Notes under the pieces: generated by a model
The model's input: only the letters and a program-made list of their open reading frames with translations
Database searches by the model: none
What the model was told of the DNA's origin: nothing
Source: an uncultured Clostridia bacterium
Lineage (GTDB): Bacteria; Bacillota; Clostridia; TANB77; CAG-508
Assembly (NCBI GenBank): GCA_934154445.1
Contig: CAKPGC010000001.1
Span: 21,787-85,786, forward strand
Length of the DNA: 64,000 nt
Direction: 5' to 3'
Made by a program: the position numbers and the translations under genes
Part shown: positions 55,184-55,268 of the stretch, in pieces
Layout of the letters: every line of letters begins with the position of its first letter
Position numbering within the stretch: position 1 is the first letter of the stretch

Positions 55184-55268
55184 ATTGCCAAAATAGACGG
55201 AGGGTTTTGACAACATTTTTTTATTTTTATATTTCTAGTTGTCAAAATTCTCCGTCCCTTTTGACAAC
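55184..55268. repeat. bipartite palindromic element in grpE-dnaK intergenic region
   Basis: minus-sense GTTGTCAAAAGGGACGGAGAATTTTGACAAC, 23-nt AT spacer, GTTGTCAAAACCCTCCGTCTATTTTGGCAAT; the unit cores are mutually complementary. Confidence 0.6.

What the first reader, a model, noticed from the sequence alone, without database searches (positions are those of the whole stretch)
55184..55268. Same bipartite palindrome sits inside the heat-shock operon between grpE and dnaK
The 126-nt grpE-dnaK spacer is almost entirely occupied by two 31-nt units, each with perfect 10-bp outer arms (GTTGTCAAAA/TTTTGACAAC). One unit core is GGGACGGAGAA and the other is its complement. The element ends about 10 nt before the dnaK Shine-Dalgarno. 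The alternative pairings (two hairpins versus a 31-bp inter-unit duplex) are what an RNA thermometer, an RNase processing or stability determinant, or an internal attenuator would need to uncouple dnaK from hrcA-grpE expression.
Basis: partly seen in the sequence, partly recalled or inferred. Interest (0 to 1): 0.55.

Follow-up and report, generated by a model that had tools for sequence, protein, structure and literature searches.

The report
REP/REPIN mobile palindrome between grpE and dnaK
The double palindrome between grpE and dnaK is one copy of a short mobile repeat (a REP doublet) found throughout the genomes of an uncultured group of gut Clostridia, alongside a dedicated transposase gene; it is not a purpose-built heat-shock RNA switch, although it may still affect how the operon's mRNA is processed.

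Summary
The 126-nt grpE-dnaK spacer holds two 31-nt units in inverted orientation, but only one has perfect arms, and only 7 of the 11 core positions form Watson-Crick pairs.

It is not specific to the heat-shock operon. The window holds another doublet (27616-27697) and a single unit (58388-58418). A scan of public genomes found the same unit (TTGTCAAAA-GGGACGnnnnn-TTTTGACAA) at dozens of intergenic sites in low-GC gut Clostridia MAGs. It occurs mostly as head-to-head doublets whose cores covary. In three relatives, units directly flank a RAYT-like Y1 transposase gene. This is the anatomy of a REP/REPIN-RAYT system, apparently not yet described for this lineage.

At grpE-dnaK the doublet is orthologous in five lineages with compensatory core changes. 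It is missing from the three nearest lineages, so it is dispensable.

Folding predicts one 31-bp hairpin (-35 kcal/mol) that persists at 55 C and leaves the dnaK Shine-Dalgarno free. That argues against a thermometer, and no U-tract follows it, which argues against a terminator. Heat control comes from a CIRCE operator upstream of hrcA. An effect on mRNA stability or RNase III processing remains possible but untested.

Verdict: new member of a known kind, modest interest.

The parts
55238..55268 (-). REP unit U1 (next to grpE): GTTGTCAAAA-GGGACGGAGAA-TTTTGACAAC, perfect 10-bp arms, core in the GGGACG orientation on the mRNA strand
   Evidence: nhmmer E=3.9e-9 against the family profile
55215..55237 (-). 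23-nt A-rich linker (CTAGAAATATAAAAATAAAAAAAT type). It forms the loop of the long hairpin. The motif ATAAAAATAAAAAGT recurs in linkers of other doublets
55184..55214 (-). REP unit U2 (next to dnaK), an inverted copy: GTTGTCAAAA-CCCTCCGTCTA-TTTTGGCAAT, arms 8/10, core degenerate
55184..55268 (-). The whole doublet (REPIN-like). It is predicted to form one 31-position hairpin as RNA (-35.4 kcal/mol) or as single-stranded DNA (-21 kcal/mol)
55168..55173 (-). dnaK Shine-Dalgarno AGGAGG, 10 nt downstream of U2 and outside the hairpin
27616..27697 (-). Second doublet of the same family, between a dpaA-like gene and bacA/uppP. Its helix is fully paired on the mRNA strand: 28 Watson-Crick + 3 G-U pairs over 31 positions
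58388..58418 (+). Single unit of the same family between DUF4912 and GH57 genes. The orthologous site holds a full doublet in L203 and a single unit in L207/L208
56841..56867 (-). CIRCE operator (1 mismatch) upstream of hrcA. This is the conventional heat-shock control of the operon and is not part of the repeat

Best explanation
The element is a REPIN-type doublet of a REP (repetitive extragenic palindrome) family carried by a clade of uncultured, low-GC gut Clostridia.

Anatomy (shown):
- The unit is about 31 nt: A/T-rich 9-10-bp arms (GT)TGTCAAAA / TTTTGACA(AC) around an 11-nt G+C-rich core that starts with GGGACG.
- Two units in head-to-head orientation, plus a short A-rich linker, form the doublet.
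- The two arms evolve together so that the whole doublet can fold into one long hairpin.

Mobility (inferred):
- By analogy with REP/REPIN-RAYT systems, copies are made or moved in trans by a RAYT-like HUH/Y1 transposase acting on single-stranded DNA hairpins.
- Once inserted, copies are inherited vertically and decay slowly into single units or empty sites.

This copy (shown, except where marked):
- The grpE-dnaK copy is an old insertion. It is shared by at least five lineages and lost in others.
- It is not the heat-shock control, which is HrcA/CIRCE at the operon promoter.

Effect on the operon (inferred, not shown):
- In the polycistronic mRNA the doublet should form a stable 31-position duplex just upstream of the dnaK ribosome-binding site.
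- The most likely side effect is the one known for intra-operon REPs: a barrier or cleavage site (3' exonuclease block, RNase III substrate, 5' stabiliser for dnaK-dnaJ) that shifts the relative abundance of the upstream and downstream operon segments.
- This effect would not be temperature-sensing.
For: Repeat family:
- The pattern gives 4 hits in the window against 0.02 expected. A profile search finds 5 units at 3 intergenic loci.
Of these, 53 carry GGGACG-type cores (103 units; the 54-source, 106-unit tally also counts the window's 3). 47 are from 24-30% GC gut Clostridia MAGs.
- At least 23 units fall in the sampled pieces of a single MAG, CAKPAB01.

Doublets:
- 34 of 36 doublets have the same head-to-head order.
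- They lie mostly between co-directional genes and fill the spacer.

Co-evolution of the two arms (36 doublets):
- The inter-unit helix is 91.8% paired.
- Compensatory CG<->GC changes occur at three core pairs (20:11, 22:9, 24:6).
- There are also AU<->CG changes, and an AU<->UA change that breaks the local hairpin but keeps inter-unit pairing.
- The covariation score is 0.161 against 0.062 in shuffles (0 of 500). The two local hairpins show no covariation beyond shuffles.

Transposase:
- ORFs flanked by units in L104, L200 and L144 hit Pfam Y1_Tnp above its cutoff (43.6 and 49.6 bits, cutoff 23).
- Their best NCBIfam model is REP-associated tyrosine transposase.
- Their only PDB match is E. 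coli TnpA-REP, 4ER8. The HxH and Y-I-x-x-N-P-x-K-A motifs are conserved.
- A fourth copy (L189) lies in the same MAG as the orthologous dnaK locus L148.

Mobility of the whole doublet:
- Two different loci of one MAG (L111, L148) share 90% identity over 102 nt. The shared stretch is confined to the doublet, its linker and about 25 nt downstream; the flanks are unrelated.

Orthology and decay:
- The doublet sits at the same place and in the same order in the window, L148, L095, L098 and L205/206, with compensatory core changes: GGAGAA, GGGGAA, GGGCTT/AAGCCC, GGGAAA/TCTCCC.
- The DUF4912-GH57 site holds a doublet in L203 and single units elsewhere.

Structure: one long hairpin at -35.4 kcal/mol against -9.2 and -6.2 for the local hairpins.

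Heat control: CIRCE operators lie upstream of hrcA and groES.
Against: - No RAYT gene lies in the 64-kb window, and whether this species has one was not tested.
- The three loci in the window have different, partly degenerate cores. There is no sign of a recently active master sequence here.
- The RAYT-like proteins score just under NCBIfam's equivalog cutoff (78.8 and 64.9, cutoff 80).
- The RAYT of MAG CAKPAB01 has no unit within about 3 kb.
- The family lacks the terminal GTAG or CGTC tag of the REP super-families catalogued by Di Nocera et al. (PMC3733652). Its conserved asymmetric motif sits in the loop.
- Nothing here shows transposase activity, and nothing shows any RNA-level effect.
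- The excess of G-U over A-C mismatches on the mRNA strand is weak (20 against 12). Selection on RNA rather than DNA structure is therefore not shown.
Confidence: 0.8

Rival explanations
1. Exapted intercistronic RNA element. The doublet is kept at grpE-dnaK because its hairpin sets the ratio of hrcA-grpE to dnaK-dnaJ mRNA. It would act as an RNase III site, a 3'-exonuclease barrier for the upstream part, and a 5' stem-loop just ahead of the Shine-Dalgarno that protects the downstream part from RNase J. This does not exclude a REPIN origin.
For: - The doublet is orthologous in five lineages, with compensatory changes that keep the helix.
- The predicted duplex spans 31 positions at -35 kcal/mol and ends 10 nt before the Shine-Dalgarno.
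- Every lineage examined has some stable hairpin in this spacer: the REPIN, an unrelated 124-nt palindrome, both, or a remnant.
- From established knowledge, not tested here: REPs inside E. coli operons such as malE-malF change the relative stability of operon segments, and the B. subtilis dnaK operon transcript is processed.
Against: - The three lineages nearest to the window (L203/204, L207, L208) and L201/202 lack the doublet, so it is dispensable.
- The same covariation is seen at unrelated loci, so it is a property of the repeat family and not of this operon.
- The G-U against A-C asymmetry is inconclusive.
- 'Always one hairpin' rests on 8 lineages and is not significant.
- There are no transcript data.
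Confidence: 0.2
2. RNA thermometer. The structure melts on heat shock and releases dnaK translation.
For: - It lies upstream of a heat-shock gene.
- The U2 core of this window contains CCUCC, complementary to the Shine-Dalgarno.
Against: - The Shine-Dalgarno and AUG lie outside the hairpin, with P(paired) about 0.2 at 25, 37, 45 and 55 C.
- The hairpin is still -24 kcal/mol at 55 C.
- The CCUCC motif is absent from the orthologous cores (ACCCCCGTCCC, AAGCCCGTCCC, TCTCCCGTCCC).
- The same element sits at non-heat-shock loci.
Confidence: 0.02
3. Intrinsic terminator or attenuator that ends part of transcription after grpE.
For: It is a strong hairpin in an intercistronic spacer. Single units of the family are common between convergent genes (7 cases), where they could help termination.
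Against: - No U-tract follows the hairpin on the mRNA strand (UAAGAAUUUAAGG). The T-run lies on the opposite strand.
- The terminator scan found 0 sites in 54900-57600.
Confidence: 0.05
4. Operator or architectural binding site for a dimeric DNA-binding protein that recognises TTGTCAAAA-N11-TTTTGACAA. It would have CIRCE-like geometry, or bind nucleoid proteins as E. coli REPs bind IHF and gyrase.
For: The arms are nearly invariant while the 3' half of the core varies (position table). The half-sites are two helical turns apart.
Against: - The strong covariation is between the cores of the two units, which an operator does not need.
- Linker length is variable, from 3 to about 110 nt.
- Units flank RAYT genes.
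- The flanking genes show no regulon logic.
Confidence: 0.05

Closest known systems
REPIN-RAYT systems of Pseudomonas and Enterobacteria (Bertels & Rainey 2011, PMC3116915; Bertels et al. 2017, PMC5581495); equivalent to the BIME/REPtron with TnpA-REP of E. coli (Ton-Hoang et al. 2012, PMC3333891; structure 4ER8, PMC3479197)
   Same: - Short palindromic units scattered in intergenic space.
- Mostly head-to-head doublets with a short linker, able to form one long hairpin.
- Compensatory changes between the two arms.
- Single units as decay products.
- A Y1 HUH transposase with conserved HxH and Tyr motifs, flanked by units.
- Long-term vertical persistence at orthologous sites.
   Different: - The host is a low-GC Firmicute lineage. 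The searchable literature ties abundant REPINs to RAYT groups 2 and 3 in Proteobacteria, and only notes that group 1 RAYTs occur in Clostridia.
- The stems are A/T-rich, with a large 11-nt G+C-rich loop.
- There is no 5' GTAG. The conserved asymmetric motif GGGACG lies inside the loop.
- The RAYTs carry a C-terminal extension of about 80-100 aa (weak HTH hit) and score just below the NCBIfam cutoff.
GTAG- and CGTC-tagged REP super-families (Di Nocera et al. 2013, PMC3733652)
   Same: Head-to-head dimers predominate; single units and intragenic copies exist. The reverse strand of the unit contains CGTC (CGTCCC).
   Different: In those families the tag is terminal, stems are 5-13 bp and loops are mostly 2-5 nt. 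CGTC families have a CCA tail and no associated transposase. Here the CGTC-like motif is internal, the loop is 11 nt and a transposase is associated. No Firmicutes are listed in that paper.
CIRCE / HrcA operator
   Same: 9-bp inverted repeat with a 9-11-nt spacer, in the same operon.
   Different: The sequence is different. The true CIRCE is present upstream of hrcA (56841-56867) and of groES. The spacer element is a genome-wide repeat.
Intra-operon REP as an mRNA stability determinant (E. coli malE-malF; from established knowledge, not tested here)
   Same: A REP hairpin between co-transcribed genes.
   Different: The effect is not demonstrated here. The Firmicute RNase set (RNase Y, J and III) differs from that of E. 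coli.

Membership tests
REP / REPIN-RAYT system | Short (20-40 nt) imperfect palindrome repeated many times in the extragenic space of one genome | tested here: met
   - 5 units at 3 intergenic loci in the 64-kb window.
- 53 fetched loci with 103 units in related MAGs (whose total of 54 sources and 106 units includes the window).
- At least 23 units in the sampled pieces of MAG CAKPAB01.
REP / REPIN-RAYT system | Units paired in inverted orientation with a short linker, the two arms co-evolving so that a single long hairpin can form | tested here: met
   - 34 of 36 doublets have the same head-to-head order.
- The helix is 91.8% paired, with a covariation score of 0.161 against 0.062 and 0 of 500 shuffles reaching it.
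- The local hairpins show no covariation.
REP / REPIN-RAYT system | A RAYT (HUH/Y1 transposase) in the same genome, typically flanked by the REPs | tested here: met
   - Met in relatives. L104, L200 and L144 each have a Y1_Tnp ORF with units within about 50 nt.
- L189's RAYT lies in the same MAG as the orthologous dnaK locus L148.
- The only PDB hit is TnpA-REP 4ER8, and the catalytic motifs are conserved.
- Not testable for the window's own genome, because only 64 kb is held and it contains no RAYT.
REP / REPIN-RAYT system | Conserved terminal tetranucleotide tag (GTAG or CGTC) next to the stem | tested here: not met
   The unit flanks are aaGT...ACtt. The conserved asymmetric motif GGGACG (CGTCCC on the other strand) lies inside the loop (position table). 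The tag defines the catalogued super-families, not REPs in general.
REP / REPIN-RAYT system | RAYT binds and cleaves the single-stranded REP hairpin | not testable with these tools
   Needs biochemistry.
RNA thermometer (ROSE / fourU type) | Shine-Dalgarno or start codon sequestered in a structure that melts between about 30 and 45 C | tested here: not met
   The Shine-Dalgarno lies 10 nt outside the hairpin, with P(paired) 0.16-0.22 at 25-55 C. The hairpin is -31 kcal/mol at 45 C and -24 at 55 C.
Intrinsic terminator / attenuator | Hairpin directly followed by a U-tract on the transcribed strand | tested here: not met
   Sequence after U2 on the mRNA strand: UAAGAAUUUAAGGAGG. The scan found 0 terminator-like sites.
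CIRCE / HrcA operator | TTAGCACTC-N9-GAGTGCTAA | tested here: not met
   There is no match in the spacer. Matches lie at 56841-56867 and 11966-11992 only.
RNase III intercistronic processing site | Double-stranded RNA of about 20 bp or more that is cleaved in vivo | tested here: inconclusive
   A duplex of 25 Watson-Crick + 3 G-U pairs out of 31 positions is predicted. Cleavage cannot be tested here.
Known Rfam RNA families | Match at the gathering score | tested here: not met
   Only two tRNAs match in the window. The spacer gives only sub-threshold miRNA-hairpin noise.

The most novel reading that the evidence does not exclude
A selfish REPIN has been co-opted in this clade as the intercistronic hairpin that uncouples dnaK-dnaJ from hrcA-grpE mRNA, through an RNase III cut plus a 5' stem-loop stabiliser just ahead of the dnaK Shine-Dalgarno. 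It would be functionally interchangeable with the unrelated 124-nt palindrome that fills the same spacer in sister lineages. In that case the selected trait is 'a stable hairpin between grpE and dnaK', and different elements have been recruited to supply it.
Probability: 0.12. Interest if true: 0.6.

Novelty: new member of a known kind. Interest (0 to 1): 0.35.

Why it matters
REPIN-RAYT systems are regarded as long-lived, vertically inherited replicators. They have been studied almost only in Proteobacteria.

This family is clear-cut and sits in uncultured low-GC gut Clostridia, with related copies in a Lachnospiraceae MAG and a Syntrophomonas MAG. Its unit anatomy is unusual: A/T-rich stem and a large G+C-rich loop carrying the conserved motif. 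It therefore widens both the host range and the range of structures that Y1 transposases may recognise.

It also gives a practical warning. Conserved, covarying hairpins inside operons of these MAGs can be mobile repeats rather than dedicated riboregulators.

The lineages with and without the doublet at grpE-dnaK form a natural experiment for testing what an intra-operon REP does to mRNA in a Firmicute.

Tried and rejected
- Rfam: the whole window at gathering score gives only 2 tRNAs. The spacer at E<=10 gives only miRNA-like hairpin noise.
- Viral contig scan with a degenerate pattern: 77 single hits with unrelated cores, so chance or other elements.
- Promoter reading: each unit contains TTGACA. 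The scan found no promoter in the spacer. The best -10-like hexamer (TAAAAA) lacks the final T and lies 14-22 nt away across loci.
- CtsR, Spo0A or ComK-box resemblance of the arms: considered from memory only. Rejected because of the inverted geometry, the core covariation and the genome-wide distribution.
- CRISPR mini-array (GTTG...CAAC ends): rejected. The two units are inverted, not direct, and there is no array.
- MITE with terminal inverted repeats: no consistent internal sequence and no target duplication were seen.
- Strand test for RNA-level selection (G-U against A-C mismatches on the mRNA strand): 20 against 12, inconclusive.
- The A-rich linker lies on the mRNA strand in about 19 of 22 co-directional doublets. 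I could not separate a transcription-related bias from a replication-strand bias, which is expected for Y1 transposases and for leading-strand gene bias in Firmicutes.
Relatives were obtained through GrpE homologues instead.
- Full-text search for the unit sequence: no relevant paper. No paper combines REP, RAYT and Firmicutes.

Full report
**1. What is in the sequence**

The genes run on the minus strand (ORFs, Pfam):
- hrcA 55817-56827
- grpE 55286-55801
- dnaK 53309-55159
- dnaJ 51677-52840

The grpE-dnaK spacer is 55160-55285, 126 nt. Read on the mRNA strand it is:

aaaaaa-GTTGTCAAAA-GGGACGGAGAA-TTTTGACAAC-(23-nt A-rich linker)-GTTGTCAAAA-CCCTCCGTCTA-TTTTGGCAAT-taagaattta-AGGAGG-aatttaaa-ATG

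The first unit (55268..55238) has perfect 10-bp arms. The second (55214..55184) has arms matching 8 of 10; most other strains have C instead of the last T. The second core is the reverse complement of the first at the seven central positions, plus one G-U.

It is far from chance. The two-arm pattern has 4 matches in the window against 0.02 expected. The spacer folds 7 standard deviations better than shuffles.

**2. It is one copy of a repeat family**

The window holds two more loci of the same kind:
- A doublet at 27616-27646 / 27667-27697, between a dpaA-like gene and bacA/uppP.
- A single unit at 58388-58418, between a DUF4912 gene and a GH57 branching enzyme.

A profile built from the family finds only these five units in 64 kb. 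None of these other genes is a heat-shock gene.

The window comes from an uncultured human-gut bacterium. The identical GrpE occurs on contigs from Hadza and other gut metagenomes. The window is 27% G+C.

I scanned one genome per GTDB species with TTGTCAAAA-N11-TTTTGACAA.
- 53 of them carry units whose core starts with GGGACG (or ends with CGTCCC), 103 units in all; the 54-source, 106-unit tally also counts the window's three.
- 47 of those loci come from gut Clostridia MAGs of 24-30% G+C.
- One MAG (CAKPAB01) contributes at least 23 units in the pieces fetched.
- The rest of the hits have unrelated, mostly A/T-rich cores and look like background. So do all 77 hits in viral contigs.
- The same arms with core GGGACGGTTCT occur in a 48% G+C Lachnospiraceae MAG and in a Syntrophomonas MAG.

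**3. Anatomy of the family**

The unit consensus is aaGT-TGTCAAAA-GGGACG(S)(S)(C)(Y)T-TTTTGACA-ACtt. Because the pattern used to collect the units fixes most arm positions, the near-invariance of the arms is partly built in.

Units occur mostly as doublets, and 34 of 36 have the same head-to-head order: the GGGACG unit, a linker, then the reverse-complement unit. Linkers run from 3 to about 110 nt, commonly about 20 nt and A-rich.

By a crude ORF call, doublets lie mainly between co-directional genes (22 cases; 3 convergent, 3 divergent). Single units are frequent between convergent genes (7 cases). The element typically fills the whole spacer, ending a few nucleotides before the next Shine-Dalgarno.

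On an alignment of 36 doublets:
- The long inter-unit helix is 91.8% paired.
- The core pairs show compensatory changes: CG against GC at 20:11, 22:9 and 24:6, plus AU against CG.
- An AU-to-UA change in the arms preserves inter-unit pairing while breaking the local hairpin.
- The covariation score is 0.161 against 0.062 in shuffles, with 0 of 500 shuffles reaching it.
- The two local hairpins show no covariation beyond shuffles (107 of 500).

The doublet therefore evolves as one long inverted repeat. Because copies are related by descent, the shuffle test overstates significance. The slid-partner control and the arm change that discriminates the two folds point the same way.

**4. The associated transposase**

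Some units lie about 1-2 kb apart with complementary cores. Between them I found ORFs (L104 1823-2677; L200 2101-2778) with these properties:
- They hit Pfam Y1_Tnp above its cutoff.
- Their best NCBIfam model is REP-associated tyrosine transposase, at 64.9 and 78.8 bits. Both are just under the cutoff of 80.
- Their only match in the PDB is E. coli TnpA-REP, 4ER8.

tblastn finds two more copies, in L144 and L189. All four share the HxH motif and the Y-I-x-x-N-P-x-K-A motif.

In L104, L200 and L144, units sit within about 50 nt of the gene ends. L189 lies in the same MAG as L148, the orthologous dnaK locus, although no unit lies within about 3 kb of that gene.

These loci were fetched only because they contain the repeat. 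Four RAYT genes in roughly 430 kb, three of them abutted by units, is well above what a single-copy gene in a genome of about 1.5-2 Mb would give by chance (about 0.25 expected; my estimate).

Two different loci of MAG CAKPAB01 (L111 and L148) share 90% identity over 102 nt. The shared stretch is confined to the doublet, its linker and about 25 nt downstream, and the flanks are unrelated. This shows that the doublet spreads as a whole.

**5. History at grpE-dnaK**

Three of the pattern-fetched loci turned out to be the hrcA-grpE-dnaK loci of other species (L148, L095, L098). GrpE homologues gave four more lineages.

The doublet is present at the same place and in the same order in the window, L148, L095, L098 and L205/206. 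The cores differ and compensate:

| Lineage | U1 core tail | U2 partner |
|---|---|---|
| window | GGAGAA | (degenerate) |
| L148 | GGGGAA | ACCCCC |
| L095 | GGGGAT | ACCCCC |
| L098 | GGGCTT | AAGCCC (perfect) |
| L205 | GGGAAA | TCTCCC |

It is absent from L207, L208, L203/204 and L201/202.

By hrcA nucleotide identity, L207, L208 and L203 are the window's nearest relatives (0.89-0.90), and they nest inside the doublet-bearing group. That tree is rough: it is a UPGMA tree on one gene.

The empty sites still contain the linker-like ATATAAAATAAAA between the same flanks. I infer an ancestral doublet followed by loss of the individual hairpins.

The spacer ranges from 113 to 316 nt across these lineages.

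The DUF4912-GH57 junction shows the same dynamics: a full doublet in L203 (with GGGACG changed to GAAACG and a compensating CGTTTC) and single units in the window and in L207/208.

**6. What the structure can and cannot do**

- As RNA, the doublet folds into one hairpin of -35.4 kcal/mol. The two local hairpins are worth only -9.2 and -6.2.
- The long hairpin is still the minimum-energy fold at 55 C (-24 kcal/mol).
- The dnaK Shine-Dalgarno stays unpaired (probability about 0.2) from 25 to 55 C. A thermometer is therefore not supported.
- The CCUCC in this window's U2 core is not conserved in the orthologues.
- No U-tract follows the hairpin on the mRNA strand, and the terminator scan is empty. 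An attenuator is therefore not supported.
- No promoter-like site was found in the spacer.
- The operon has a normal sigma-A-type promoter with a CIRCE operator upstream of hrcA (56841-56867). groES has another CIRCE (11966-11992).
- As single-stranded DNA, both strands fold into the long hairpin as well (-21 and -19 kcal/mol). This is what a Y1 transposase acting on single-stranded DNA would meet.

**7. Interpretation**

Shown:
- A genome-wide family of palindromic units.
- Head-to-head doublets with co-evolving arms.
- Association with RAYT-like genes in relatives.
- Orthologous persistence, with losses.

Inferred:
- Mobilisation by the RAYT on single-stranded hairpins, by analogy with TnpA-REP and IS200/IS605.
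- An effect of the hairpin on the operon's mRNA, by analogy with intra-operon REPs in E. coli and with 5' stem-loop stabilisers in Bacillus. Both analogies come from established knowledge and were not tested here.

The G-U against A-C mismatch asymmetry on the mRNA strand (20 against 12) is too weak to say that RNA, rather than DNA, is the selected form. The A-rich linker lies on the mRNA strand in about 19 of 22 co-directional cases. That could reflect either transcription or the replication strand.

**8. Comparison with what is known**

The system works like, and by the tests possible here belongs to, the REP/REPIN-RAYT kind (PMC3116915, PMC5581495, PMC3333891).

It differs in host. The literature I could search links abundant REPINs to RAYT groups 2 and 3 in Proteobacteria, and only notes group 1 RAYTs in Clostridia. 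The catalogue of GTAG- and CGTC-tagged REPs lists no Firmicutes.

It also differs in unit anatomy: an A/T-rich stem, an 11-nt G+C-rich loop that carries the conserved motif, and no terminal tag. No paper in the library contains the unit sequence.

I therefore call it a new member of a known kind.

**9. Verdict**

The proposed heat-shock-specific RNA switch is not supported, and a general effect on RNA stability or processing remains open. Interest is modest (0.35). It is a clean, apparently undescribed REPIN-RAYT family in gut Clostridia and offers a natural presence/absence experiment at grpE-dnaK, but it is not a new kind of system.

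Noticed in passing
L207 10509-10632; L208 10509-10632; L148 7217-7340; L203/L204 10499-10622 (a remnant in the L201 spacer, 10499-10612): In several relatives, a different 124-nt imperfect palindrome sits directly after the grpE stop codon. It folds as RNA at about -30 kcal/mol (z = -4.7), has no Rfam match, and blastn finds it only at this locus in all DNA held. L201 keeps only its outer stem. The window, L095, L098 and L205 lack it. Every lineage examined therefore has some stable hairpin between grpE and dnaK (8 lineages, not significant).
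   Followed up: partly
L104 1612-1638: A REP unit lies in frame inside a tilS-like ORF (763-1851), adding about 9-10 residues (…NCQKDPALLTN…). It is also the unit flanking one side of the RAYT gene.
   Followed up: no
window 11966-11992: A second CIRCE-like operator (2 mismatches) lies upstream of groES (11639-11920) and groEL (9929-11566).
   Followed up: partly
window 52855-53391 (-): An ORF of 154-178 aa with no Pfam hit lies between dnaK and dnaJ and overlaps the 3' end of dnaK. It is called as a gene in all close relatives (L001-L006) but is absent from or different in others (L205, L207).
   Followed up: no
L085, L094, L102, L114, L128, L151 (56-63% G+C Oscillospiraceae/Clostridiales MAGs): These loci have the same arms, TTGTCAAAA/TTTTGACAA, around short self-complementary cores (AAGCAGTGCTT, AACTTTTAGTT, AATCTTTGATT, AAGTAGTACTT). 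This gives one longer perfect hairpin and may be a separate hairpin family in high-GC relatives.
   Followed up: no
L116, L144, L160 (Lachnospiraceae ruminal_MAG_201, 48% G+C); L134 (Syntrophomonas): These loci have the same arms with core GGGACGGTTCT. In L144 a RAYT gene is flanked by units. The REP-RAYT pair therefore spans distant Clostridia families, which suggests either horizontal transfer or great age.
   Followed up: partly
core position 10 of the doublet helix (column 20/47 of alignment A3): This position is a recurrent mismatch or wobble, in 14 of 22 co-directional doublets. It may be a conserved imperfection of the hairpin, like the mismatches in E. coli REPs.
   Followed up: no
L203/L204 10640-10800: There is a further insertion of about 150 nt, of unknown nature, in the grpE-dnaK spacer of this lineage. 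The spacer is a hot spot for insertions and deletions (113-316 nt across lineages).
   Followed up: no
L021, L025, L036, L061, L066, L067, L076 (viral contigs): Several phage contigs share TTGTCAAAA-CCCCTTCAGGA-TATTGGCAA (or its reverse complement) with conserved flanks. This is a recurrent phage palindrome unrelated to the GGGACG family.
   Followed up: no
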